From: a virus
Length of the DNA stretch: 64,000 nucleotides
Direction: 5' to 3' (one strand)
Virus record (IMG/VR): IMGVR_UViG_3300035698_007508
Coordinates: 1 to 64,000 of that record
Positions 12,702 through 45,189 of this stretch are shown here, one piece after another. Position 1 is the first letter of the stretch. Every line of letters begins with the position of its first letter. Below the pieces are notes generated by a model. It was not told the origin of the DNA. It worked only from the letters and a program-made list of their open reading frames with translations, and made no database searches. A program made the translations under genes and the position numbers.

Positions 12702-12954
12702 TGGAATAGTAACAGGACAGCTGGTGTTCCGCGACAAGGGCGACGCGCCCGACGGTTCGGATCGTAAGCTGTTCATGGTAGTTGGCGTATTGGCCGTGCC
12801 CAGGGATCACTTCATCAAGGGCGAGCACCGGTACGTACTGGATGGTCACGACGAAGACCTTGTGCTGCATCAGGCCAGCGCGAAAGACGTGAGTGCCCGG
12901 ACTATCGGCAACAGCGCCAGCGGTATACTGTGCGCACCGATGTGGCAGATATGA
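12685..12954 (+). CDS. Hypothetical protein
   Basis: AGGAGG SD, GTG start. Confidence 0.55.
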   Translation: MSNQNDGIVTGQLVFRDKGDAPDGSDRKLFMVVGVLAVPRDHFIKGEHRYVLDGHDEDLVLHQASAKDVSARTIGNSASGILCAPMWQI

Positions 12955-13736
12955 GCACGTCACGCGTAGAGCTCGGTACGATCCTTGCGGTAGCGCGTGG
13001 GGATCGTGTGCGAGTCGGTTACAGCGGGTACAGAGTCAGGGGCCAACGGTTCGCCGGCGGTACCCATACGTTAATGACGCCCGACATGTGGATCAAGATC
13101 ACATGCAGGGTAATAGAGAACCGGGGCCATACGTTCCTGGTGGAAGGGGTAGGACCGATGGAGTTCATGTACACAGCGATGGACCCGAAAGGCACGAAAG
13201 TGTACGGGGTGGTGACAGCTGACGACCAGTCACAGGCTATTGGCAAGATCCAGGTTGATGGTAAGGTCGCGATTAAGGTGGCGAAAATCAAGGAGCGTCC
13301 GTTCAAGGCGTTACCAGCCGATCGTACTGCTCTAATAGTAAGACCGTGGTATAAACGGGTGGCTGGCTGGTTCGAGGGCGTAAAGCCTAAGGGTGTACCG
13401 CGTGATGTGTTTGACTGTACAGGACCACCGATGGTGAACCATACCAGCACGATCGACGTACGGGTAGCTACGCTACAGGAGCGGTATGCTGACGTACGGG
13501 TAGCTACACTACAGGAGCGGTACGATGAACTGCAGGAGCGGTACGCTGAACTGGTTTCGGCTAGCATCGAGCAACATGTGTTACTGCAGCGCGCACGTCA
13601 GCAGCTGCTGGATCTGGCAATAGCGTTCGAACCGGTAGATGACTGGTACGGCCGCGGCACCGAAGGCGATCGTTCGCTTGAGGACGCACTGAAGGATGCG
13701 ATAGCAGACCTACAGACATCGCGGACAGCGCGGTAG
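12951..13736 (+). CDS. Mosaic protein containing a PilC/GspF N-terminal-like segment and a coiled-coil repeat
   Basis: FMYTAMDPKGTKVYGVVTADDQSQAIGKI at about 13158-13290; duplicated DVRVATLQERY. Confidence 0.65.
   Translation: MSTSRVELGTILAVARGDRVRVGYSGYRVRGQRFAGGTHTLMTPDMWIKITCRVIENRGHTFLVEGVGPMEFMYTAMDPKGTKVYGVVTADDQSQAIGKIQVDGKVAIKVAKIKERPFKALPADRTALIVRPWYKRVAGWFEGVKPKGVPRDVFDCTGPPMVNHTSTIDVRVATLQERYADVRVATLQERYDELQERYAELVSASIEQHVLLQRARQQLLDLAIAFEPVDDWYGRGTEGDRSLEDALKDAIADLQTSRTAR
13455..13526 (+). repeat. 36-bp tandem duplication inside a CDS
   Basis: gacgtacgggtagctacgctacaggagcggtatgct followed by gacgtacgggtagctacactacaggagcggtacgat. Confidence 0.9.
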
Positions 13737-13856
13737 GCGGTGAAAACGGGTAGACACCTCCGGCCTGGATCATGTTGTGCAACCGCATAGCCGGACGCCT
13801 GTAGGATAAAATAATCGGGGTTCAAGTTCTCTGTGCGTTCACCCCAGTCCGCACCA
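13721..13856 (+). ncRNA. tRNA-like structured element with CCA end, carrying a 63-nt antisense segment
   Basis: GCGGAC/GTCCGC-A-CCA acceptor-like stem, GGTG-AAAACGGGTAGA-CACC D-like arm, TCCGGC/GCCGGA stem, GGGG-TTCAAGT...CCCC T-like arm interrupted by extra bases. Confidence 0.5.
13731..13793. repeat. 63-bp perfect inverted repeat, copy 1
   Basis: Exact reverse complement of 24745-24807; mismatches immediately on both sides. Confidence 0.95.
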
Positions 13857-13940
13857 TTTTAACCGTTCAAGTCAATAACACCCACAAGGGATAACACCGC
13901 TATGCGGTACAACACGCACTAAGTGCGAGAGGAGAGTGTG

Positions 13941-14123
13941 ATGAGCCACATTAGCGACATGACTGAGTTGCATGCGCAAGCGGTGCGCCTTAAGCAGTTA
14001 ATAGAGGAGCGCGTCTGCGTTGGCTGGTTCAATCTGTCGGCGGAGGAGAAGTTTGACTGGCATAAGAACGTGAATGCTGTGGTGCTGCGCATCCGAGAAT
14101 TATGGCCGCCGGAGGAGGATTAG
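13941..14123 (+). CDS. Small hypothetical protein
   Basis: GAGGAG SD. Confidence 0.55.
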   Translation: MSHISDMTELHAQAVRLKQLIEERVCVGWFNLSAEEKFDWHKNVNAVVLRIRELWPPEED

Positions 14124-14126
14124 GTA

Positions 14127-14468
14127 GTGTCCATGACTAGGGATCAGGTAATGAAGGCGATAGCTGACGGCGCGGACCCCAGTAGATTGGGCGCGCTGGC
14201 GCATCGCATCAAGGACTACGTGCAAGCAACGGGTCAGCACTGGGTGAAGACGCCACGCTATGACTGGCACAAGGCAACGCCACGTGAGCTGCGCTTAATC
14301 CGAGAGGGTAAAGTGCCGAGCCATCCGCGGCGAGCGTTCAAACCGGAGCCGCCCCTATGGGTGGTACAAGACAAGGACCGGAGCGTACCGATAGGGAGGA
14401 AGAAGCGGAAGAGCAGGAAGAGTTGGAAGTCACGCCGTAACCCGGCACAGATGCAGTTAAAACTGTAA
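14127..14468 (+). CDS. Basic hypothetical protein with Lys/Arg-rich C-terminus
   Basis: GGAGGAGG SD; RKKRKSRKSWKSRR tract. Confidence 0.6.
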   Translation: MSMTRDQVMKAIADGADPSRLGALAHRIKDYVQATGQHWVKTPRYDWHKATPRELRLIREGKVPSHPRRAFKPEPPLWVVQDKDRSVPIGRKKRKSRKSWKSRRNPAQMQLKL

Positions 14469-14486
14469 CAAGCGAAGGAGTATGCT

Positions 14487-15134
14487 ATGCGCATGGATGA
14501 CGGACCTGGCGCGGGAAGCTACAGTATCGACGATACACGTGCTGCGCGTAAGCGGTGCGTGCTTGGTGTATTCTGCGGTAATAATGCTGATGCGCAGCTA
14601 TTGCAGGACCGGTGGGAAGTACTGTTGGGTAATCCCAAATGGGGGACACGGTTTGAGATCTACCGTTACACCACTGTATTAGCGCGTTGTGGTGTGTGCG
14701 GTAAATGGACGCCAATATCGCATCTAACACGTGCTGATGATGGTTTCCACGGTTATGACGGTCGTGATGCCGACGACATCACGGCTATAGACGACGAGTG
14801 GGCGACACCGTTATGCACTAAATGCATAGATGTAGCGCGTAAAGCCTACGAGCGTATCGATGAATTCGCCGAGGCGTGGGGCGTTAATCCACGCAATGGC
14901 GAGTTCGAGTCTGATTGGTACGACGAGGACGAGGACGAGGAGGAGGAGGACGATTGGACTGTTAATTACGGCCCGAAAGAGTTCGAGATGCTGATGCGAG
15001 ATGGATGCGTCGGCACAACAGGAGAGAACCCTGTCGAGACCAAAGCGAACGCATATGTGGATAAGATGCGTGAGTTGATGGCCGCGCTGCCACAAGGTAT
15101 ACGGTATGTAGGGCCAGATCATTACGACTGGTAA
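14487..15134 (+). CDS. Hypothetical protein with CxxC pairs and an acidic tract
   Basis: AAGGAG SD; CGVC...CTKC; DEDEDEEEED. Confidence 0.7.
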   Translation: MRMDDGPGAGSYSIDDTRAARKRCVLGVFCGNNADAQLLQDRWEVLLGNPKWGTRFEIYRYTTVLARCGVCGKWTPISHLTRADDGFHGYDGRDADDITAIDDEWATPLCTKCIDVARKAYERIDEFAEAWGVNPRNGEFESDWYDEDEDEEEEDDWTVNYGPKEFEMLMRDGCVGTTGENPVETKANAYVDKMRELMAALPQGIRYVGPDHYDW

Positions 15135-17528: not shown

Positions 17529-17539
17529 TTAACCGAGTG

Positions 17540-17559
17540 GGCGGGCCTTCGGGCCCGCC
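17540..17559 (+). terminator. cUUCGg hairpin
   Basis: GGCGGGCC-TTCG-GGCCCGCC; weak U-tract. Confidence 0.55.
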
Positions 17560-17582
17560 TTGCTCAACAGATTGGACAACCC

Positions 17583-18182: not shown

Positions 18183-18211
18183 TATACGGGTGGTATAGTC
18201 TTCAATCCACT

Positions 18212-18249
18212 GACTGGACGGGCCTTCGGGCCCGCCTGGTCTTTCTCTT
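18212..18249 (+). terminator. Rho-independent terminator closing the early region
   Basis: CGGGCC-TTCG-GGCCCG followed by CTTTCTCTT. Confidence 0.7.
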
Positions 18250-18272
18250 ACCTATCAGACGCATATAAACCT

Positions 18273-18301
18273 TTGACAGAACACGCATACTGGTTTACAG
18301 T
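18273..18301 (+). promoter_or_regulatory. Sigma70-like promoter at the start of the virion module
   Basis: TTGACA-17 nt-TACAGT directly after a terminator. Confidence 0.7.
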
Positions 18302-21122: not shown

Positions 21123-23096
21123 ATGCTCGGCAACCCAAGTCAGAATCTACCGTTGCCTTACGGCAACACTGGTGAGTGGTCCGGTATCACGCAAGCGGGG
21201 TCCGGGAAGTTTCCCAACCCCTTCTTTGATATCGCCAGTGAGTACGTCCCCCGTAACCTGCACCAGATCTTCGAATGGGCAGAGTACATCTACCTCACCT
21301 ACGGTACATACCGATCTGCAGCCCGCAAGGTCGTACGCTACTTCCTGACCGAGCTCGTGCTTGATGGCGAGTCCGAGGAGGAACGTGATCAGTACCAGGA
21401 CTTCCTGGACAATAAGATGCACATGCTCACCCAGCTGGCATCTATCGGCGATGATTACATGGTGTATGGCAACGTGTTCGTATCCATCTACTTCCCGTTC
21501 GACCGGTTCCTGATCTGCCCTAATTGCCACACGCATTACCACATCGATACCGTACCCTATAAGTGGAACTTCAAACGATTGGAGTTTCACGGACAGTGCC
21601 AGAAGTGCGGTTGGGAAGGCGCGTACGCGCATGAGGACATCCGGTCCATGGATCATGATCGTGTCCGCATCATCCGCTGGAACCCCAAGCGCATTCGTCT
21701 GCGTGTCCACGATATCTCGGGCGAGATAGAGTACTACTACGAGCCTGATCCCAAGTTCGTACGTAAACTGCGTGAGGGCAACCGCTTCTACCTAAATGAC
21801 ACACCGTGGTCCATCGTCGAGTGCTGTGCCAAGTGCCGCGACAGCGATCAACCGTTGTTCCAGTTCACGGCCGACCAGATCTACCACATGAAGGAAGCGA
21901 CGCTGGCCGGCCTGCCTATCAAGGGCTGGGCTATACCTCCGATTCTGCCTAACTTCAAGCTGGCCTACTACATCCAGGTCCTGCGCCGTTACGACGAGGC
22001 TATTGCCTTGGACTACATCGTGCCGTTCCGTATCCTGTACCCCGAGCAAGGGGCCCCAGGCGGGATGAATACCGATCCCCTGATGTCTCTGTCCATGGAC
22101 GTATTCGTCGCCCACATGAAGGGTATGGTTGCGGCCAAGCGCGCCAACGCCACAGATGTACAGATTGCCCCGTTCAAGATCGGGTACGAAATGCTAGGCG
22201 GCGAGGCCGCGACTCTGGCACCAAAGGACAATATTGCACAGGCGCTGGACGAACTGCTGAACGCCGTTGGTTTCCCGGCCGAGCTCTACAAGGGCAGCCT
22301 GTCAATCCAGGCCTTCCCCGTAGCCTTGCGATTGTTTGAGAAGACGTGGGGATCACTGGTCGAGGGCTACAACGATCTGATTGACTGGGTATTGACCAAG
22401 GTTAGCCGTTACTTCGGTTGGGGCCAGATCAGCGGTGCGCTGCGTAGCGTGACGCTGGCTGACGACATCGAGCGTAAGGCACTGGCACTACAGGCCGCAG
22501 CAGGCATGGATATCTCCAAGGGCACGGCGTACAAGCCGCTCGGCATCGACTACCTGGAAGAACAGGAGAAGGTCGTCGAGGAGCAGAAAGAGATCCAGGT
22601 GTTGCAGCAGGAAGCCATGGAAGAGCAGGAAGCTGCGCAGTTCGGCGGCCAAGGTGGCGGCCAAGGTGGTGGACAGGTAGGTACCGGCGGACAGCCAGGC
22701 GCGACGCCGGGTGACGTACATGCCCAGGCTAAGGAGCTGGCGTACACGATGGTCACACAGACGCCTGAGACCCAGCGTCGCTCCGAGCTGATCAAGATCA
22801 AGCACAGCAACCCAACGCTGCACGCGCTGGTCATCCAGGAGATGGACGCGCTGCGTCAGGAACTGTCACGACAGGGTCAGCAGATGATGCTCAGTCAGAT
22901 GAAGCAGGCCGATGATCGCGGTGTACACGTGGCCGGGGCCGGGCTGTTGCCCAGCCCGCTGGCACTTGGACTCTTGATCTCGGGCCAGGTCATGGACTAT
23001 ACTCGGGCTGATATGCGGAAATTGGCCATGGACATCAAGATACCCGGCGTGCGAGGTGCATTCCGGTTTGTGCGTGATAAATTACGAGGACTGTGA
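21123..23096 (+). CDS. Putative portal protein
   Basis: 657 aa at the head of the structural module; FPNPFFDIA..YVP..L..IF.W.EY N-terminus; helical core and Q/E-rich C-terminal coiled coil; CPNC...CQKC insertion. Confidence 0.55.
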   Translation: MLGNPSQNLPLPYGNTGEWSGITQAGSGKFPNPFFDIASEYVPRNLHQIFEWAEYIYLTYGTYRSAARKVVRYFLTELVLDGESEEERDQYQDFLDNKMHMLTQLASIGDDYMVYGNVFVSIYFPFDRFLICPNCHTHYHIDTVPYKWNFKRLEFHGQCQKCGWEGAYAHEDIRSMDHDRVRIIRWNPKRIRLRVHDISGEIEYYYEPDPKFVRKLREGNRFYLNDTPWSIVECCAKCRDSDQPLFQFTADQIYHMKEATLAGLPIKGWAIPPILPNFKLAYYIQVLRRYDEAIALDYIVPFRILYPEQGAPGGMNTDPLMSLSMDVFVAHMKGMVAAKRANATDVQIAPFKIGYEMLGGEAATLAPKDNIAQALDELLNAVGFPAELYKGSLSIQAFPVALRLFEKTWGSLVEGYNDLIDWVLTKVSRYFGWGQISGALRSVTLADDIERKALALQAAAGMDISKGTAYKPLGIDYLEEQEKVVEEQKEIQVLQQEAMEEQEAAQFGGQGGGQGGGQVGTGGQPGATPGDVHAQAKELAYTMVTQTPETQRRSELIKIKHSNPTLHALVIQEMDALRQELSRQGQQMMLSQMKQADDRGVHVAGAGLLPSPLALGLLISGQVMDYTRADMRKLAMDIKIPGVRGAFRFVRDKLRGL

Positions 23097-24560: not shown

Positions 24561-25034
24561 ATGATACTACTGATAGGTAAGAATCCGATGGGTAACGTCT
24601 TGCACGTGATCCAGGGTCCCGAATCGACGTTCTGGCATGAACTACACGGTTCGGCCGCTATCGATATTACACCTGTACTCAACCAGATGGATTCCGAGCA
24701 GCCGGTTTACTTACATATCTCGCAGTGCGAGTCAGAGCAGGATACGGCTATGCGGTTGCACAACATGATCCAGGCCGGAGGTGTCTACCCGTTTTCACCG
24801 CCTACCGGGGTGTTCGCGCCCAAGACGGTAATGGATACGCAGAACCCGATGGTGCCCGGCGCGGCTCCGGCTCAGGCCAAGCCAGCGACTAAGCACGCGG
24901 CGGCGCAGAAGTGCTCACGCTGTCTGTCTGACAAGAATCCGCTGGTGCCTAACCTGAAGCCCCCGATCTGCTACGATTGTGTCAAGATCGATCTACATAT
25001 CGCGGCGACCAAGAAAGCAGAGGACAAGGACTGA
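24561..25034 (+). CDS. Hypothetical protein with C-terminal CxxC...CxxC zinc finger; target of the 63-nt antisense copy
   Basis: GAGGAG SD; CSRC...CYDC; codons AMRLHNMIQAGGVYPFSPPT correspond to 24745-24807. Confidence 0.75.
   Translation: MILLIGKNPMGNVLHVIQGPESTFWHELHGSAAIDITPVLNQMDSEQPVYLHISQCESEQDTAMRLHNMIQAGGVYPFSPPTGVFAPKTVMDTQNPMVPGAAPAQAKPATKHAAAQKCSRCLSDKNPLVPNLKPPICYDCVKIDLHIAATKKAEDKD
24745..24807. repeat. 63-bp perfect inverted repeat, copy 2
   Basis: Exact reverse complement of 13731-13793. Confidence 0.95.
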
Positions 25035-27571: not shown

Positions 27572-27985
27572 ATGCTTGCGGGACTGCAAGACGAAATGAC
27601 CGGGCAACCAGTTGGTCCCGGCAATGTCGATTTCACAGTCGGGGAATCGATGTTCGAAACGTTGGGAAACACGCGGGGCTTGCGCCCCGATGCAGACGTC
27701 ATGGCGCAAGCCATGGATCGCCTGTTGATAGACCGTAAGGTCGAGGTCAAAGAGTTTGTAGCCAGAACGTACGATCTGAACGACGAGACACAGCGTAATC
27801 AGTACCAGTACGATATGGAGATGATCTTCTTCGGCCTGCAGTTGCGAACGCATGCGATCATTCATCGTGCGCCGCTACAATTTGTGAACGACGAGCAAGG
27901 ACCGCGGTACATCGCGCATTTGCAGTGGATTGAATTCACGCTACTGCAAAAACCGGTACCGACTGTCGGATCTAAAAAGGAGTAG
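27572..27985 (+). CDS. Hypothetical protein
   Basis: GGGAGG SD. Confidence 0.75.
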   Translation: MLAGLQDEMTGQPVGPGNVDFTVGESMFETLGNTRGLRPDADVMAQAMDRLLIDRKVEVKEFVARTYDLNDETQRNQYQYDMEMIFFGLQLRTHAIIHRAPLQFVNDEQGPRYIAHLQWIEFTLLQKPVPTVGSKKE

Positions 27986-27989
27986 GATC

Positions 27990-29705
27990 ATGAAACAGAC
28001 TAGTCAAGGGCTTATGCAGAATCGGGCCGTGCGCGTAGGCTTGGGCGGCGCTGCCGGTGGGGCTGGTCTCGCCGCCGTACTCAACCTCATGCACGAACTG
28101 CAGTTGGAGAAGAAACGCCGTGCCATGGCCAAGGATATCGGACGTACCGACGAGAACACGATTGTACTGACCCTGCCCAATAAGCAGGGCGAGGTACAGG
28201 CCAGCGAGGGCGAGCCCACGACTGTAAAGACTGTACAGCGCGCCAGTTCGTCTACTACTGCGGTCCCGGCCAAGACTTACCGTGTGGGACATTATGGCAC
28301 ACAGCAGATGAAGGTAGCTACGCCATGGCCATTGAACACCAGCTGGATGCAGTGGGCGCTGGGTGCGCTGGGCGTGGCGGGCGGTGGCGTTGCCGGGTAT
28401 ACCGCGATGGACGCGCTATATCAGGCCCGGCTCAAGCGCAAACTGCAGGGCGAGGAAGATAATGCACGGCAGGAAATGCTGGACATGCTCCAGAATCCAG
28501 GACTCAAGACCGGCGGCTGGCTGGATGAGATCATTGACGTACCTGGCATCGCTGCAATCAGCGCCGATAAGACGGCCGCTGTTAAATCCGCGGTGCCTTA
28601 TATAGACCCAGTGCTTGGCAGTTTAGTCGCGTTGACCCTGCTCGGGACTGGCGGTACGGCCTACCTGACCAAGCGGCTACTGGACGCCAAGCAGGACGAG
28701 CATGATCAGGAAGGGCGCGTTACACCCAAGGTACGGCGTATCGTTTTCCGGTCTTCACCGCAAGTGGCGGACCCAGCACTCAAGCAGGCCAGTGCCGAAG
28801 ACCTGGGCATTCTACAGGCATCCCTCGTCATTATGATGGACAAGATGAGCGGCGAAACACGCGTGCTCGATCATCCTGAAATGGTACCCATCTTGAAGGA
28901 AGCTGGTATTACCGTATCCGGGCTGTTCAAGATGGCGGATAGCGCGACAGATCTTATAGGTTACTTGTATTCCAATCCGGATATGTGGCGGAAGGCCAAG
29001 AATCTCGGCATCCAACAGCGTCCGGGATTACGTACTGTTGGCTGGGGCGAGCACAAGTTCGAGATACCAGCCGGTGCGGCCAATACCATGGCTAATTTAC
29101 CCGGCGTACGCGGGTATACCGATAATCTGATGCGCACCAAGCTGGAAACCATGCTCCGCGGCTCGTCTGGGCAACGCTGGACGCCGTCACCTGACCAAGC
29201 CAGTACGATGTCCGGTCAGGAACTCCGTAATATCCGTAGAGGTAACGATGCTCGCCGTATGCGCTTGGCGTCTGGTATGGCGCAACCCAAGCCAGGTGAA
29301 CAAGGCTACGGCGGGTTAGATCTTAAGCAATTATTGGGCAAAGTATGGGGCAACGTCTCGAACTTTGCCAAGGGTATCGGCCCGCGCTTCGTCCAGGGCT
29401 GGGAAGGCTTTTCCGCACCCCAGACACCCAGCCAGACACCCAACCAGGCCGCTAACGCCGTGAAGTACTCCAACGCGGTCATGCCTATCCTCAGCAGCTT
29501 CGTTGGTAGTTCGCTCGCACGCGGACGAGATAACGAGCCAGAACCACAGACGTGGGAAGCGTTGCCCGAGCGTACCGATGTCAACCGCGTCCTACGCAAC
29601 ATCAAGCTGGACGCGGAAGACCCCGAAGCCGAGCGATACCTACAGGCCAAACGCGCACGTATCCGCGCCATTCTAGGTCAGCTCGTGGCAGAGGGTAAAT
29701 TATAA
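27990..29705 (+). CDS. Large glycine-zipper K-x-A virion protein
   Basis: GLGGAAGGAGLAA, ALGALGVAGGGVAG, LGSLVALTLLGTGG; KTAA, KQAS, KMAD. Confidence 0.7.
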   Translation: MKQTSQGLMQNRAVRVGLGGAAGGAGLAAVLNLMHELQLEKKRRAMAKDIGRTDENTIVLTLPNKQGEVQASEGEPTTVKTVQRASSSTTAVPAKTYRVGHYGTQQMKVATPWPLNTSWMQWALGALGVAGGGVAGYTAMDALYQARLKRKLQGEEDNARQEMLDMLQNPGLKTGGWLDEIIDVPGIAAISADKTAAVKSAVPYIDPVLGSLVALTLLGTGGTAYLTKRLLDAKQDEHDQEGRVTPKVRRIVFRSSPQVADPALKQASAEDLGILQASLVIMMDKMSGETRVLDHPEMVPILKEAGITVSGLFKMADSATDLIGYLYSNPDMWRKAKNLGIQQRPGLRTVGWGEHKFEIPAGAANTMANLPGVRGYTDNLMRTKLETMLRGSSGQRWTPSPDQASTMSGQELRNIRRGNDARRMRLASGMAQPKPGEQGYGGLDLKQLLGKVWGNVSNFAKGIGPRFVQGWEGFSAPQTPSQTPNQAANAVKYSNAVMPILSSFVGSSLARGRDNEPEPQTWEALPERTDVNRVLRNIKLDAEDPEAERYLQAKRARIRAILGQLVAEGKL

Positions 29706-39495: not shown

Positions 39496-42348
39496 ATGAA
39501 GTTGGCTGACGTTCTGGCGACCCCGCCAAATAGCTTGATCAAGGACGCGGATATCGAGAGTCCCGACGAGGCGCAACTGGAGCGGGACTTTGCGAGCATG
39601 GCGTTCGTGTTCTTGCGTGACCGAGCCCCGGCGCTTATGCCCTATCTATTAGGGTTCGAGGTCGTAGACCGCGAAGAAGACGGTTCCCGCGCTATCGGTA
39701 TCTTTGGATTCAAGATCTCCGGCGAATACTACTACGTCCCCGCGTTCTTCGTGAACCAGCAGGTCAAAGGTATGGACCTGTTGTTCGCCAAGAAGACCAA
39801 CAGTTTCATGCCGCTGCGTGAGACCTGGATCAATCATTTGCTCGACAAGTCCACGTTACAGCTCGGCGAAGGCCGTAACGACAAGAAGCTGCGCGAAGAC
39901 TTCGAGAACCCCAATTTCGACTTCATCTCGTCACCGCCTGGTACGACCAAGCTGGCCAACGCCGGACTCGGTTACCTGTTCACAGCAGAGGAACTGGCTA
40001 AGTTGGGTCAGATTGTCACACCGGCACAGACGTCGGGTATCCCGCGTCCCCTGATGATGGCACAGCAGGCACAACCGGGCGCACAGCCGCAGCAGGACCC
40101 GAACGCCAGCGGCGCAGCTGTACAGCCACCACCAGCGTCCGGCGTCGTGCCGGTAGGTAACGTGGCCACACTTCAACAGGCTGGTCAGGTACTACCCGGG
40201 AACGTCACCGGTCAGACACCGCAGTTCCCCGGTAAGGCTGCAGGCGTTAGCGCACGCGGTAAGCGAGACGGTAGCGGTCCATACGGTGCTAGTGCGCAGC
40301 GTTCGTTGACCGGTGATAAGGGCGTACGTCAACTTGCTGGCGAAGAATGTCCGATGGCGGCCGGCGGCACCAAGGCCGATTCAGAACTCACACCGGCGGA
40401 AGCCAAGGCGCGTAAAGCGTGGAAGTCTAGCCAAAAACAGGCCGGGTGGCACGTTGGCCAGTGTCACGAAGCATGGAACGATATACAGGGCGCCGTCGCG
40501 GAAAGCATGGCCAAGGATGCCGCTTTTCAGATGGACTGGGCCGGGTTCGTCGCAGCTCTCAACAAGCAGACCCTTGACGATTGGCACAAAACGGCTGACG
40601 GTAGCCCTCTTCTTTCATACATCGCGCACCACGGTGGTCCACGGGCTGCACGTGCGCTGATGACGTCGCTGGGTAACGTGAAGTTCGCCAACGCGGCCCT
40701 TCTTTTTTACCCATCAGTCGAGTCCCTGTACGTGCACGAGTTCGACGCCAGCCTACAGCCCGAGAAGCGTGCAGCTACGATCAGCGTGGTCAGTAGCGGC
40801 GAGATGGATGGACCATGTTGCCCTGAAGACGCTTCCGACGCCGAGCGTAAACGTCTGGTACGCGATAGTTTCAGCATCATCGATCGCCGTGACTCCGAGT
40901 CCAAGTCGGAAGTGTTCGACGCTGCGTACGAGAAGCAGTACTCTAATCCGACCGAGAGCGGTACCTACGACTTGTTACTGCCAACCGGTAGTACGGCCGA
41001 GGCCTGGGTTCTACAACAGGCGGGCGGACAACCTGGTAAGGGCCTGGTAGTTGTCGAGCCGTCCAATCGTTTCTTCTTCACTGCCGATCCATCCCGCGTA
41101 TACGTACGCGGGGAACAGCGGGACGGTGATGGCCCGTACGCTAAGGCCAAGTCGCTGGGTAGCATGCAATCGGACGAGCGCTACATCCTGGTCAACGAGC
41201 GCGGCGACGCAAGCGCGCCATTCCGCGTACAAGCCGTGGTGGCCGAGAACGGTGAGCGCGTACGCATCCGTGTGAACTTTGAGACCTGTGTGGATCACGC
41301 GAAGTCACGTGCTGGTACGTTCGACGGTATCAGTGATGGTTACTATGACGATCGCACCAAGTACCTGCAGCTGTCCGACGACTCCAGTCCGAAGCTGCGT
41401 AAGGCCAATGAGAACCTGATTGTGTCCAAGGCATGGAAGGTAGTGAGCCTGGTCGACAAATACGATTACGCTCGCCCACCCAAGGCTATGGACGATCCGG
41501 AAGAGCGTTCCGCCGCACGTTCCGCCGCGGAGAATGCGTACGACGCGTTCTCACCCGGTGACCCTATTGACTTGGAAGAGGCATTCGGCAAGCACGCGAT
41601 CCATCGACTGACTGTTGAGGCTGCGGACCAGGGTAACACCTTCTATAGCTACTTCGACGGTTACACCGACGGTCCGTGGACGCAGAAGCAGGCCATGCTC
41701 AAGCTGGTTACCAAGTACGGCATGAGCGTTGACGACGCCGAGGACACGATGCTGGACGCCGTGGCGAACATGAAATCACGCAAGCTGATCAAACTGGCGC
41801 AGGGTGTCGGTATCGGCATGAACATGCCGCAACCCCCGAGCGCTACCGGCTCTGACCCGAGCACGGGAGTTCCGATCGAGGAACCGTGGACTGGTACCGA
41901 GACCGGCGAAATGCTGGGCGCACCGCCGCTGGCTGATACGATGGAGCCTGGCTACGCTGTCGGCGGGCAGACCGAGAACGAACTGTCCAGCGGTGGGCAG
42001 CAGGACGCGGGTCAGGAAGCTATGGCCCTGTCTGAACAGGCTGCCCAGACCGGTCAGAAGAACGTGTTCGATCACGCGACGATCGGTGGACTGGTACGCC
42101 TGTACGACGCTTCATCTGTGATCGATCAGTACGTACCCGAGCTGATCAAGGCGCTCGACCGCGTCGGTCGTATTCTCTTCATTTTCTACTGGAAGAACGA
42201 GGACTTCGCGGAACGTTACGGCAAGGAAGACCTGGCCGAAATGGAAGACCTGATCCGCGGTGTGTTCAAATCGTTCGGCGACTTGGTGCTCAAGTTGAAG
42301 CAGAAGTCGGTCGGTTCCGACGACAGCAAGGACGTGTTGGCGATATGA
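39496..42348 (+). CDS. Large K-x-A-motif internal head protein
   Basis: GAGGAG SD; KLAD, KLAN, KQAG, KTAD, KRAA, KLAQ; Q/P-rich linkers. Confidence 0.75.
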   Translation: MKLADVLATPPNSLIKDADIESPDEAQLERDFASMAFVFLRDRAPALMPYLLGFEVVDREEDGSRAIGIFGFKISGEYYYVPAFFVNQQVKGMDLLFAKKTNSFMPLRETWINHLLDKSTLQLGEGRNDKKLREDFENPNFDFISSPPGTTKLANAGLGYLFTAEELAKLGQIVTPAQTSGIPRPLMMAQQAQPGAQPQQDPNASGAAVQPPPASGVVPVGNVATLQQAGQVLPGNVTGQTPQFPGKAAGVSARGKRDGSGPYGASAQRSLTGDKGVRQLAGEECPMAAGGTKADSELTPAEAKARKAWKSSQKQAGWHVGQCHEAWNDIQGAVAESMAKDAAFQMDWAGFVAALNKQTLDDWHKTADGSPLLSYIAHHGGPRAARALMTSLGNVKFANAALLFYPSVESLYVHEFDASLQPEKRAATISVVSSGEMDGPCCPEDASDAERKRLVRDSFSIIDRRDSESKSEVFDAAYEKQYSNPTESGTYDLLLPTGSTAEAWVLQQAGGQPGKGLVVVEPSNRFFFTADPSRVYVRGEQRDGDGPYAKAKSLGSMQSDERYILVNERGDASAPFRVQAVVAENGERVRIRVNFETCVDHAKSRAGTFDGISDGYYDDRTKYLQLSDDSSPKLRKANENLIVSKAWKVVSLVDKYDYARPPKAMDDPEERSAARSAAENAYDAFSPGDPIDLEEAFGKHAIHRLTVEAADQGNTFYSYFDGYTDGPWTQKQAMLKLVTKYGMSVDDAEDTMLDAVANMKSRKLIKLAQGVGIGMNMPQPPSATGSDPSTGVPIEEPWTGTETGEMLGAPPLADTMEPGYAVGGQTENELSSGGQQDAGQEAMALSEQAAQTGQKNVFDHATIGGLVRLYDASSVIDQYVPELIKALDRVGRILFIFYWKNEDFAERYGKEDLAEMEDLIRGVFKSFGDLVLKLKQKSVGSDDSKDVLAI

Positions 42349-43364
42349 TCTTGGGCAACCGCGATATCCGGACCCCGTTCATCAGCGAGGGCGATGATCC
42401 GCTGAACGTGGTATGCGACTGGCCGCACCAGGTCGCCGTAGCCATGCGGGATCAGAATATCAAGTATCGTCGGTTACCTAAGGTACTGAGAGACACGCCT
42501 GAGTGTAAGTTGATTTGTACGCATGCCGAGTTCTTGACCGCGTTCGCGCAGTCAGAGGCTGCGGCGCGGAAGAAGTACAACCTACACCACATCGCTGACG
42601 GTTGGTTTACGCGTCGTGGTGAGTCGCTGGGTAGGGATTATGTGGATCCTATGTTGCTCGGCGGCGCGCCTCACGGGGTGACCGCGGCGCTATGCGGGGA
42701 AGAGGTATTGATGCAGAAGTGCCCGATAGAACTGATTGAGATCTATGAGAAGCTGTTCTACCATTGCCGCGCCGCAGACGGCACGATGGTGGCTTCGCCA
42801 ATCCGTAAACGTATCTTGGCACTCAATGGCCAACCTACGTTGACGCCCCGTGCGACAGCGCAGGACAAATGGAAAGCCGTGGCGGCGATTTTCGACTATT
42901 CAACGCTCGTCGAGTACTGGGGCTTCTGGGAGATTGACACGGCCGGCTCGTTACCGGACGCTGTACGGTTCATGCGCCAGAAACGTTATGGACAAGAGCA
43001 TATGTTTGAGCGTATTATGACGGGGCAAATTGATGATGAACAGACACTTGCAATGGTAAGCCAGAGTATGGAGCACGAAAAGCAACAGTTTGAGATGGGC
43101 GCTGGTGCCAGCGAGAACGTGTGGGCACAGCTATTCGGTCGTGTATTGCAACTGGTGGCGCCGGAACTAGCTCCGCTGCCACAGTCCGAAGCGCAGATGC
43201 AGTCCCAGAGTGCTGCACTGACCCGCAAACTGGAGGCGCAGCGCAACGTGCATACCATCGATGTAGAGGACGCTGGTCCTGCTGCTGGCCGTGACGCACG
43301 CAATCAACAGATTCAGCAACACTTAGAGGCTGAAGCAGCAAGACAGGAGGCACCGGTACAATGA
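42345..43364 (+). CDS. Hypothetical protein in the head module
   Basis: ATGA coupling, 339 aa. Confidence 0.75.
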   Translation: MILGNRDIRTPFISEGDDPLNVVCDWPHQVAVAMRDQNIKYRRLPKVLRDTPECKLICTHAEFLTAFAQSEAAARKKYNLHHIADGWFTRRGESLGRDYVDPMLLGGAPHGVTAALCGEEVLMQKCPIELIEIYEKLFYHCRAADGTMVASPIRKRILALNGQPTLTPRATAQDKWKAVAAIFDYSTLVEYWGFWEIDTAGSLPDAVRFMRQKRYGQEHMFERIMTGQIDDEQTLAMVSQSMEHEKQQFEMGAGASENVWAQLFGRVLQLVAPELAPLPQSEAQMQSQSAALTRKLEAQRNVHTIDVEDAGPAAGRDARNQQIQQHLEAEAARQEAPVQ

Positions 43365-44839
43365 TCGATCCAGTACTGAAGGATAAGCTGATGGGAGCAC
43401 TCCAAACCAGCGTTGATCATATCAACGGTGGTATGCAGGCTCAGGAAGCGGTGGTTAAGGCAGCCACCGCCGCAGACTTTAACGTCGAACAGTCCCGCCG
43501 GTTGTGCGAGCTGTTCAACACCGCCCGTACCCTATATCATTTCGAGCGGAACCCCGGCCAGAAGGAGGCGTCATTCGAGCTGATCGACGCCGACGCAGTG
43601 CTTGGTGATATCTTCACCGCACCCGGGACCGCGCCGAAGATTGCGCAGGATGCAGTTCCCGACTATACTGAGTACGATAGTCCTGAACTGATGGTACGGG
43701 ACGGCATGGTAGTCGAGGCCGCCGCCGAACTTTGGCCCAAAGCGGCCGAAGCGCTCCCGAGCCTGGATATGCAAGCCCGCCGGGCATATCGCATCATAGA
43801 TACGCAGCGTGGACTGGCCGACCAGACGCAGTCCGAGTGTAGGCAGGCCGAGATTCACATATCGCAGTCATTGAGTAAACTTGCGGCGGCCATCGGGCAA
43901 GACTTCAGCTTGAACGGTCCGGCACGCTATGCGCGATTCCTACGGGCCCGTGACGGCCAGGAGGATCAGCCCGTAGTGGCTAAGCTGGCAGAGTTCCTAC
44001 CGGCCTACGTCAAGGTCAGTGCAGGCGATCTGGCGGCCTGTGGCCGTATCGTCGAGGACCGCGACCTACAGCCGTGGTTCGCACACATCGATTTTGCGCG
44101 TCAGATGGAGCATCAGGCTACTGCCTCGTTGGCCATTGCACGCACTGTGGCGAAGGAAGCACAAGCCTTCGAGGATGCCTTCGTCGGCATGGTCGGCGGA
44201 CAGCGACATGAACCAGATGTAATTGAGACCCTTCTCGCCCCTTTTGTGGAAAAACGTAGCGCCGAAGGCGCCGGCACGTACAGCATACCGACGCTGGACG
44301 TGGGTGCTGCGTTTGGACTGACACCGGAGCGCACGACGCCTGCGAGCCTGCGTGGCGAGGGTAACAAGAACCTCGGTACCCGCACCGTAGAGCGTCAGCC
44401 GGGCTTGGCCGGTAAGCTGCTTGGCGGCACCGGTGGTATCGTCGGCGAGGCCACGAAGGATTACGTGACGTCCGGGATCAAGACGTTGGGACAACGCGGC
44501 GTGGCCGAGAACCGTACGATCACGGACCGGTTAAAGAATCAGCAACGCGAAGTACTGCTACAGGACCTGCTGGCCACCGATCCGTTTATCAGCGAAGCCG
44601 ATCCACAATCTGTGGCTAATGGGTACCTGACGATCATGCAGGTAGCGCCCGAGGTGTCCACCAACAAGGAAGTGGTCCGTGCGGTGTTGCGGCAGCTGAT
44701 ACACACCGGCGCGCTTAGCACGTTCGACGCGTCGTCGCTGGCCGACCTTGAGAAGACTATTCGCGAAACAGCTGGTACACTACCAGTGCGGCAAACTGTG
44801 GGGGCAATTGGCCGGGACCGCAGTAGTAGACGAAGATGA
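43361..44839 (+). CDS. K-x-A-motif internal head protein
   Basis: VKAAT, KIAQ, KAAE, EKRSA. Confidence 0.75.
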   Translation: MIDPVLKDKLMGALQTSVDHINGGMQAQEAVVKAATAADFNVEQSRRLCELFNTARTLYHFERNPGQKEASFELIDADAVLGDIFTAPGTAPKIAQDAVPDYTEYDSPELMVRDGMVVEAAAELWPKAAEALPSLDMQARRAYRIIDTQRGLADQTQSECRQAEIHISQSLSKLAAAIGQDFSLNGPARYARFLRARDGQEDQPVVAKLAEFLPAYVKVSAGDLAACGRIVEDRDLQPWFAHIDFARQMEHQATASLAIARTVAKEAQAFEDAFVGMVGGQRHEPDVIETLLAPFVEKRSAEGAGTYSIPTLDVGAAFGLTPERTTPASLRGEGNKNLGTRTVERQPGLAGKLLGGTGGIVGEATKDYVTSGIKTLGQRGVAENRTITDRLKNQQREVLLQDLLATDPFISEADPQSVANGYLTIMQVAPEVSTNKEVVRAVLRQLIHTGALSTFDASSLADLEKTIRETAGTLPVRQTVGAIGRDRSSRRR

Positions 44840-45189
44840 AGATCCGGACATACAAGAAGTTGGAAGGCGGTATCTACCGCGTATCCATGTACACACAGGA
44901 CTGGTCAGAACTGGATCAACAGCTGATGGCCAAGTTTGACGAGCCTGAGATCGATCTAGGCGGTACGTTTACCGGCGCGCCGTCGCTCGATTTCGACCTG
45001 GACAACGACTTGGTACGGATCATGAGCGAATCACCGTTCTCCGTCGCTTTCGATATCGATGATTACGCGGACGCGCACGACCGCGCCGAACTCTGGGCCG
45101 ATACGATTCAGGCTCGGATCACGAGCGCCGTTTTCGCGCTCCGGTTGAATGCGGACGGATACACCGGCGAAGAGGTCACGGAGGTCTGA
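44836..45189 (+). CDS. Small acidic putative virion protein
   Basis: ATGA coupling. Confidence 0.7.
   Translation: MKIRTYKKLEGGIYRVSMYTQDWSELDQQLMAKFDEPEIDLGGTFTGAPSLDFDLDNDLVRIMSESPFSVAFDIDDYADAHDRAELWADTIQARITSAVFALRLNADGYTGEEVTEV

What the first reader, a model, noticed from the sequence alone, without database searches (positions are those of the whole stretch)
13721..13856. tRNA-like RNA carrying a perfect 63-nt antisense copy of a late gene 11 kb away
Seen: 13731-13793 is the exact reverse complement of 24745-24807, which lies in-frame in the middle of the zinc-finger gene 24561-25034. Both loci are on the + strand, so a transcript through 13.7 kb would be fully complementary to that mRNA. 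The copy sits in a tRNA-shaped frame: GCGGAC/GTCCGC stem + A-CCA, D-like arm GGTG...GGTAGACACC and a GGGG-TTCAAGT...CCCC T-like arm. Bases just outside the duplicated part (13794-13801) pair back into it (TCCGGC/GCCGGA, TAGGCG/CGCCTG), which a random duplication would not be expected to give. Inference: an early-region trans-acting antisense/guide RNA stabilised or matured through a tRNA-like scaffold (RNase P / CCA machinery) that times or silences a late gene. Alternatives: recombination sites for an 11-kb inversion, or an assembly chimera.
Basis: partly seen in the sequence, partly recalled or inferred. Interest (0 to 1): 0.9.

Follow-up and report, generated by a model that had tools for sequence, protein, structure and literature searches.

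The report
Inverted gene-fragment copy, not tRNA-like
An uncultured jumbo phage carries a real 74-base back-to-front copy of the middle of one of its own structural-region genes in a spacer of its nucleotide-metabolism region. It is most likely a recent repair or insertion scar that happens to make two mRNAs complementary, and the proposed tRNA-like scaffold fails every test.

Summary
The repeat is real. 13720-13793 is the reverse complement of 24745-24818 (74 nt, 96%; 63 nt perfect), far beyond chance. The window belongs to a 126.7-kb, about 60% complete jumbo-phage record.

The copied segment (codons 62-86 of gene 24561-25034) is colinear in four homologues at 40-73% identity; the 34% relative lacks seven of its residues. 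So the gene is the source and the 13.7-kb piece is a bare derived fragment.

The tRNA-like frame is not supported:
- ARAGORN and Rfam find nothing.
- The fold is no better than shuffles (z 0.10).
- The "acceptor + T-hairpin + NCCA" motif occurs at chance frequency (6 observed, 5.15 expected).

New here: the copy sits at the centre of a 24-nt quasi-palindrome (13709-13720 / 13794-13805, 10/12; empirical p = 0.0007). All three mismatches fall in its first 11 nt.

Best reading (about 55%): a templated inverted insertion at a palindromic break site, with incidental mRNA:mRNA complementarity. A selected trans-antisense element presented on a stem remains possible (about 25%).

No relative's DNA covering both loci could be obtained and no reads could be mapped. 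A second perfect 27-nt inverted pair exists at 28247/44808.

The parts
13720..13793 (+). Derived inverted copy of the gene segment (74 nt; 13731-13793 perfect; differences at 13724, 13728, 13730). It supplies the last codons and the TAG stop (13734-36) of ORF 12930-13736.
   Evidence: no further DNA or protein similarity beyond it
24745..24818 (+). Source segment: codons 62-86 (TAMRLHNMIQAGGVYPFSPPTGVFA) of the zinc-ribbon gene.
   Evidence: Colinear with no gaps in the homologues at 40-73% identity, YPF and F85 invariant among them. The 34% relative L003 lacks 7 residues here.
24561..25034 (+). Gene of unknown function, 157 aa, with a C-terminal CxxC-x15-CxxC. It is the potential target mRNA.
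   Evidence: 4 homologues; Cys invariant among them; no Pfam, PHROG or PDB family; syntenic in L003 upstream of the RNAP
13709..13720 (+). Left arm of the quasi-palindrome that brackets the copy (CCTACAGACATC).
   Evidence: 10/12 complementary to 13794-13805; empirical p = 0.00066 for a random 74-nt segment
13794..13805 (+). Right arm of the quasi-palindrome (GACGCCTGTAGG).
   Evidence: the 7-bp stem 13709-15/13799-805 appears in both the MFE and the centroid of 13705-13810, z -1.5
12930..13736 (+). Upstream ORF (coiled-coil-like tandem repeats, no homologues). Its 3' end runs into the copy, so the copy is at least part of this mRNA.
   Evidence: with the copy removed the frame would still stop within 0-5 codons (read)
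13817..13856 (+). A weak 5-bp hairpin with a 19-nt loop, then GTCCGC-A-CCA. Judged to be chance.
13896..13914 (+). Marginal partial copy in direct orientation (about 24744-24765 with a 3-nt gap). It could pair with 13771-13791 and is itself a small palindrome.
   Evidence: p about 0.03-0.04
17532..17560 (+). GC-rich terminator-like hairpin, the first of two that separate the 13.7-kb unit from the 24.7-kb unit.
   Evidence: family D10
18209..18240 (+). Second copy of the terminator-like hairpin with a T-run, followed by a TTGACA-17-TACAGT promoter-like site at 18273-18301.

Best explanation
A short internal piece of the zinc-ribbon gene 24561-25034 was copied in inverted orientation into the dyad centre of a 24-nt quasi-palindrome at the 3' end of ORF 12930-13736. 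This is a templated (ectopic) insertion made during repair or replication restart at a hairpin-prone site. There is no tRNA-like RNA gene here.

Every gene in this part of the phage is on the + strand. The mRNA that carries ORF 12930-13736 therefore now contains 63-74 nt perfectly complementary to the mRNA of the structural-module gene. If both RNAs coexist they would form a long duplex, which is a substrate for host RNase III. On this reading that is a by-product and not a selected regulator.

Shown: the repeat is real, the direction was gene to spacer, the copy is a bare fragment, it sits at a palindrome centre, and tRNA features are absent.

Inferred: the break/repair mechanism, the recency, and the lack of selection.
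For: - Repeat real and non-random.
- The source segment is colinear in the homologues at 40-73% identity, so it is native coding sequence of the family.
- The 13.7-kb copy has no homology beyond 74 nt at DNA or protein level. ORF 12930-13736 has no relatives.
- The copy abuts a 10/12 quasi-palindrome on both sides, empirical p = 0.0007.
- The derived differences change family-conserved residues when read in the gene frame (V to L, invariant F to S). The copy is therefore not under coding constraint.
- No promoter or terminator delimits an sRNA.
- tRNA tests are negative.
- The relatives reachable (G001, G002, G003) show no comparable inverted micro-duplications. G002 and the complete 199-kb G003 lack the target family altogether, so no conserved system is visible.
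- No RT, resolvase, RNase III or CCA enzyme in the record.
Against: - Divergence is very uneven: 3 differences in the first 11 nt and none in the next 63 (p about 0.003 under a uniform rate). This fits maintenance of the core by gene conversion or selection as well as it fits error-prone junction synthesis.
- The bracketing arms could equally be a designed stem that presents the antisense stretch.
- A second perfect inverted pair (27 nt, 28247/44808) ends 2 nt before a start codon. It hints that such complementarities may not be accidents.
- No microhomology could be identified at the junctions, because the pre-insertion sequence is unknown.
Confidence: 0.55

Rival explanations
1. Selected trans-antisense element without a tRNA scaffold. 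The 72-nt gene-derived stretch is presented between the arms of a 7-12-bp stem in the 3' part of the nucleotide-metabolism-region mRNA. It pairs with the mRNA of the zinc-ribbon gene to delay or limit its expression (duplex formation, RNase III cleavage or a translation block). The 63-nt core is kept identical by selection or concerted evolution.
For: - Same-strand complementarity with about -100 kcal/mol cofold gain.
- The loci lie in different transcription modules separated by terminator-like hairpins.
- Bracketing stem is non-random and predicted in the MFE and centroid.
- Mismatches are confined to one edge.
- A second 27-nt perfect inverted pair covers -29..-2 of the ORF 44836 start.
- Precedent: early antisense RNAs over structural genes in phage PAK_P3 (PMC4933390).
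Against: - No conservation evidence at all.
- No promoter or terminator for a discrete RNA.
- Fold z only -1.5.
- 63-74 nt of perfect pairing is far more than known trans-acting regulators use.
- The target site is mid-ORF, not at the translation start.
- Relatives show no similar pairs.
Confidence: 0.25
2. One reading: a discrete RNA of about 135 nt in a tRNA-like frame (13721-13856), matured by RNase P and CCA machinery, carrying the antisense as cargo.
For: - The literal stems GCGGAC/GTCCGC plus A-CCA and the adjacent GGGGT/ACCCC hairpin exist.
- The derived A to G change at 13724 completes the 6-bp terminal stem.
- Precedent: the P1/P7 c4 antisense RNA precursor is an RNase P substrate (Hartmann et al. 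1995, as listed in PMC4919922).
Against: - ARAGORN negative.
- Rfam: no tRNA, C4 or tmRNA at E<=10.
- Fold z 0.10.
- The motif occurs at chance frequency, 6 against 5.15.
- The 'D-arm' and 'anticodon arm' lie inside sequence dictated by the protein-coding source.
- The terminal stem crosses the better-supported 13709/13799 stem.
- Another derived change (13730) completes a mutually exclusive 4-bp hairpin, which shows how easily such 'compensation' arises.
Confidence: 0.03
3. The two arms are crossover sites for inversion of the 11-kb segment between them, either programmed or by general recombination.
For: 63 bp of perfect inverted homology is enough for homologous recombination (own knowledge). 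The inverted orientation is confirmed.
Against: - Inversion would split gene 24561-25034, which is colinear with its homologues in the present arrangement.
- It would put about 20 genes on the opposite strand in a uniformly + strand region.
- No resolvase or invertase is present, and only a sub-threshold integrase-like match lies about 95 kb away.
Confidence: 0.04
4. Assembly or library artefact: a chimeric path through a shared k-mer, or chimeric reads.
For: This is a single metagenome-assembled record and no read-level check was possible.
Against: - The copy is embedded mid-contig, with unique colinear sequence and intact ORFs on both sides.
- It carries three mismatches in an 11-nt imperfect extension. 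A de Bruijn path error would not create those, and the length is not k-mer-bounded.
- It sits exactly at a palindrome centre.
Confidence: 0.06

Closest known systems
c4 antisense RNA of phages P1/P7 (Rfam C4; precursor is an RNase P substrate: Hartmann et al. 1995, cited in PMC4919922)
   Same: A phage-encoded RNA made from the same strand as its target that acts in trans on a distant mRNA. This is the only classical case linking a phage antisense RNA to RNase P.
   Different: c4 is a conserved, discrete RNA of about 77 nt with two short recognition segments aimed at a ribosome-binding region (own knowledge). Here there is no Rfam C4 match, 63-74 nt of perfect mid-ORF complementarity, no delimiting signals and no conservation.
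Early cis-antisense transcripts over structural genes (phage PAK_P3, PMC4933390; lambda OOP)
   Same: The proposed logic is the same: early RNA complementary to late or structural mRNA prevents premature expression. Perfect, long complementarity.
   Different: Those RNAs are transcribed from the opposite strand of the target locus itself. Here the complementary stretch is an ectopic inverted copy 11 kb away inside a sense mRNA.
Templated or inverted insertions at DNA breaks, and template switching at quasi-palindromes (PMC11724301, PMC8421209, PMC8604942)
   Same: A short stretch copied from elsewhere, in either orientation, into a break. Palindromic or hairpin-prone sites act as hotspots. Arms are homogenised by switching.
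   Different: These are documented mainly in yeast and human cells and for local foldbacks of about 5-34 bp. A 74-nt copy templated from 11 kb away in a phage is inferred here, not shown. Junction microhomology could not be assessed.
tRNA genes and tRNA-like structures (mascRNA, viral TLS; PMC4919922)
   Same: A 6-bp terminal helix followed by NCCA, and an adjacent hairpin whose loop begins TTCAAGT.
   Different: No cloverleaf is recognised by ARAGORN or Infernal. The T-loop is 19 nt instead of 7, the 'anticodon loop' is 25 nt, and the motif occurs at chance frequency in this genome.
Invertible DNA segments (Gin/Cin/Hin type)
   Same: Inverted repeats bracket a multi-kb segment.
   Different: No invertase gene. 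One repeat lies inside an essential-looking ORF. The arm length and perfect identity are not typical of about 26-bp recombinase sites (own knowledge).

Membership tests
tRNA / tRNA-like RNA | Cloverleaf recognised by a tRNA finder | tested here: not met
   ARAGORN on the window and the whole record finds only tRNA-Gln 2290-2363. Nothing at 13.7 kb at default or with introns. Only inconsistent calls at -ps80/-ps70.
tRNA / tRNA-like RNA | Match to the tRNA/tmRNA/TLS covariance models | tested here: not met
   Rfam 15 at E<=10 on 1.5 kb and on 231 nt gives no tRNA-clan hit.
tRNA / tRNA-like RNA | Fold more stable than composition predicts | tested here: not met
   13721-13856: -43.9 kcal/mol against shuffles at -44.3, z 0.10.
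RNase P substrate (minihelix + 3' NCCA) | Acceptor/T-stem stack followed by NCCA, beyond chance | tested here: inconclusive
   The motif is present at 13721-13856. The same pattern occurs 6 times in the genome against 5.15 in Markov simulations. Cleavage is not testable here.
C4 antisense RNA (P1/P7) | Match to Rfam C4 model | tested here: not met
   No hit.
Trans-acting antisense RNA | Complementarity to a target mRNA transcribed from the same strand elsewhere | tested here: met
   63 nt perfect, 74 nt at 96%. Cofold gain about -100 kcal/mol.
Trans-acting antisense RNA | Own promoter and/or terminator or processing sites giving a discrete RNA | tested here: not met
   No sigma-70-like promoter or intrinsic terminator on the + strand in 13000-14500. 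Phage-specific promoters are unknown.
Trans-acting antisense RNA | Conservation or co-variation of regulator and target in relatives | not testable with these tools
Templated ectopic insertion | One copy is native (colinear with homologues); the other is a bare fragment without flanking homology | tested here: met
Templated ectopic insertion | Junction microhomology or a hairpin-prone target site | tested here: inconclusive
   The copy lies at the centre of a 10/12 quasi-palindrome, p = 0.0007. Microhomology cannot be judged without the pre-insertion sequence.
Site-specific inversion system | Invertase or recombinase gene | tested here: not met
   PF00239: none. PF00589: only 14 bits, below the cut-off, at 119.9 kb. 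The record is about 60% complete.
Diversity-generating retroelement | Reverse transcriptase, and TR/VR differing at adenines | tested here: not met
   No RVT_1. The three differences are G/A, G/C and G/C on the + strand; read in the gene frame none involves an adenine. The orientation is inverted.

The most novel reading that the evidence does not exclude
The phage uses ectopic inverted copies of its own coding sequence, embedded in sense mRNAs, as long trans-antisense elements. The 13.7-kb copy, held on a 7-12-bp stem in the nucleotide-metabolism-region transcript, would silence the structural-module zinc-ribbon gene. The 27-nt pair 28247/44808 would do the same at the start region of ORF 44836. 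The cores would be kept perfect by concerted evolution. That would be an mRNA-mRNA timing network of a kind not described for phages.
Probability: 0.12. Interest if true: 0.65.

Novelty: new member of a known kind. Interest (0 to 1): 0.3.

Why it matters
If the copy is only a repair scar, it is a clean natural example of a templated inverted insertion at a palindrome centre in a phage genome. It is also a caution that tRNA-like shapes can be read into sequence dictated by a protein-coding source.

If the complementarity is used, it would show that a virulent jumbo phage can build a long trans-antisense regulator simply by pasting a gene fragment backwards into an earlier transcript. That route to temporal control differs from the cis-antisense transcription seen in PAK_P3 and from short-seed sRNAs. 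It would be directly testable with one RNA-seq experiment.

Tried and rejected
- tRNA or tRNA pseudogene: rejected.
- Decayed paralogue of the target gene on the - strand: rejected. tblastn finds only the 25-29 residues of the copy, and the - strand ORFs run antisense to ORF 12930-13736.
- DGR or retron origin: no reverse transcriptase and no adenine-specific differences.
- attP or tRNA 3' fragment of a temperate phage: no integrase above the cut-off.
- Repeated palindromic motif or MITE: the bracket CCTACAG...CTGTAGG occurs only here, and the copy has no other copies.
- CAATAACAC as a shared promoter motif: 4 occurrences, no common context.
- Third partial copy, the 'anti-antisense' arm 13896-13914: marginal only, p 0.03-0.04.

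Searches for relatives that led nowhere:
- INPHARED phages by DNA and by protein.
- IMG/VR with the target, ORF 12930 and the dCMP deaminase as single queries.
- Exact-pattern scans of IMG/VR.
- GTDB genomes.
- JGI metagenomes gave only a 1.4-kb contig.
- Relatives found through the 657-aa protein (L010-L013) share only the structural core. Of the 13.7-kb neighbourhood, none of the nine ORFs queried between 10.3 and 18.2 kb matched; only ORFs 18912 and 19807, just upstream of the 657-aa gene, matched in L010. Two of these relatives lack the target family.

Full report
**Context.** The window is the first 64 kb of a 126,754-nt IMG/VR virus record, estimated about 60% complete. It is an uncultured jumbo phage.
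- It encodes its own multisubunit RNA polymerase (PHROG hits), ribonucleotide reductase, dCMP deaminase and an exo/endo/phosphatase-family protein.
- Nearly all credible ORFs in the window are on the + strand.
- The nearest cultured phages share only about 30% identity in the RNAP.

**Observation.**
- The repeat finder, BLAST and an exact-match scan all recover one outstanding dispersed repeat. 13720-13793 is the reverse complement of 24745-24818 (74 nt, 96%), with 13731-13793 / 24745-24807 perfect.
- The ungapped comparison shows similarity stopping sharply on both sides: 1/11 matches left of 13720 and 3/11 right of 13793. All three differences fall in 13720-13730.
- The 24.7-kb arm is codons 62-86 of ORF 24561-25034.

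**Which copy is the original?**
- The 157-aa product has four homologues at 73, 61, 56 and 40% identity, and a syntenic 34% homologue in an IMG/VR contig (L003).
- In the four homologues the copied segment aligns without gaps, with YPF and F85 invariant. Four Cys of a C-terminal CxxC...CxxC are also invariant among them. L003 lacks seven residues of the segment.
- The segment is therefore native coding sequence of this family.
- Around 13.7 kb there is no further similarity to the gene at DNA or protein level.
- Read in the gene's frame, the copy has V to L and (invariant) F to S changes.
- The upstream ORF 12930-13736 has no detectable relatives. The copy supplies its last codons and stop. 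Without the copy the frame would still stop within 0-5 codons (read).
- Direction: gene to spacer. The copy is a bare fragment.

**The tRNA-like frame.**
ARAGORN finds only tRNA-Gln at 2290-2363 in the whole record. It finds nothing at 13.7 kb unless thresholds are dropped to 70-80%, and the calls are then mutually inconsistent.
- Rfam at E<=10 reports no tRNA, tmRNA, C4 or other tRNA-like family, on 1.5 kb or on 231 nt.
- The 136-nt stretch folds no better than dinucleotide shuffles (z 0.10 on +, 0.32 on -).
- A formalised version of the frame was scanned: a 6-bp terminal helix, a 5-bp hairpin directly 5' of its 3' strand, then NCCA. It occurs 6 times in the record against 5.15 in Markov-simulated genomes.
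- The 'D arm' and 'anticodon arm' lie entirely inside sequence fixed by the protein-coding source.
- No phage CCA-adding enzyme or RNase III was found in the available 60%.

**What is new at the locus.**
- The copy is bracketed by a quasi-palindrome, 13709-13720 / 13794-13805, 10 of 12 complementary with a 7-bp perfect outer part.
- For random 74-nt segments of this genome, such a bracket (with small shifts allowed) occurs with p = 0.00066. The motif is not repeated elsewhere.
- The 7-bp stem is in both the MFE and the centroid of 13705-13810, as RNA and as DNA, with z about -1.5.
- A further partial copy in direct orientation at 13896-13914 is only marginal (p 0.03-0.04).

**Interpretation.** Two readings fit the bracket.
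- (a) A hairpin-prone palindrome was broken at its dyad and repaired with a stretch templated from the gene 11 kb away, in inverted orientation. Templated and inverted insertions at breaks, and template switching at quasi-palindromes, are documented elsewhere (PMC11724301, PMC8421209, PMC8604942). The phage record also carries homing-type endonucleases according to an earlier unchecked note.
- (b) The arms are a stem that presents a 72-nt antisense stretch.

I favour (a), at about 55%, for these reasons:
- Nothing delimits a discrete RNA.
- Structure support is weak.
- The complementarity is far longer than regulators need and targets mid-ORF.
- No conserved system is visible. The relatives that could be reached share only the structural core. 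Two of them, including a complete 199-kb genome, lack the target family. None has comparable inverted micro-duplications.

Reading (b), at about 25%, is kept alive by the following:
- the edge-confined mismatches (p about 0.003), which suggest homogenisation or selection of the core;
- the module geometry, with terminator-like hairpins at 17532-17560 and 18209-18240 between the loci;
- the large duplex gain;
- a second perfect 27-nt inverted pair whose downstream arm ends 2 nt before the ATG of ORF 44836;
- the precedent of early antisense RNAs over structural genes in PAK_P3 (PMC4933390).

**Other alternatives.**
- Inversion would split a gene that is colinear with its homologues and flip about 20 genes. 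No invertase is present.
- An assembly chimera would not produce an imperfect 11-nt extension with three mismatches, embedded between colinear unique flanks at a palindrome centre. This could not be checked against reads.
- DGR or retron origins lack a reverse transcriptase and the adenine signature.

**Limits.**
The one metagenome scan returned a 1.4-kb contig.
- There are no read or RNA data.
- The functional question is therefore open, and the scores reflect a real but single-genome feature with a rejected headline interpretation.

Noticed in passing
window 28247-28273 and 44808-44834: Second perfect inverted repeat (27 nt), 16.5 kb apart. One arm lies in a poorly conserved linker of ORF 27930-29705. 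The other is the last nine codons (GRDRSSRRR) and part of the TGA stop of ORF 43361-44839, and covers -29..-2 of the ATG of ORF 44836-45189. In the whole 126.7-kb record the only dispersed non-low-complexity repeats are this pair and the 74-nt pair, and both are inverted.
   Followed up: partly
window 17532-17560, 18209-18259; also 3271-3303 and 40686-40718: Repeated GC-rich hairpin (GGGCGGGCC-TTCG-GGCCCGCC). At three sites it is followed by a shared tail, TTTCTCTTACC(C/T)ATCAG. This may be a terminator-plus-promoter cassette marking transcription-unit boundaries.
   Followed up: no
window 12930-13736: ORF with no homologues among 5.8 billion proteins. It contains tandem 36-nt and 21-nt repeats (13455-13549) that encode a repeated VATLQERY motif.
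   Followed up: partly
window 21123-23096; L010, L012, L013: The 657-aa protein is 57-69% identical across otherwise very divergent relatives, including a complete 199-kb genome. It has no Pfam or PHROG hit. Its position and conservation suggest a portal-like core virion protein.
   Followed up: partly
window 13896-13914: The sequence ACCGC-TAT-GCGGT is a small perfect palindrome. It also resembles the start of the copied gene segment and could pair with 13782-13791. It is only marginally above chance.
   Followed up: yes
G000:C1:117362-117379 (outside the window): Perfect 18-nt palindrome ATGTACATCGATGTACAT, the longest in the record.
   Followed up: no
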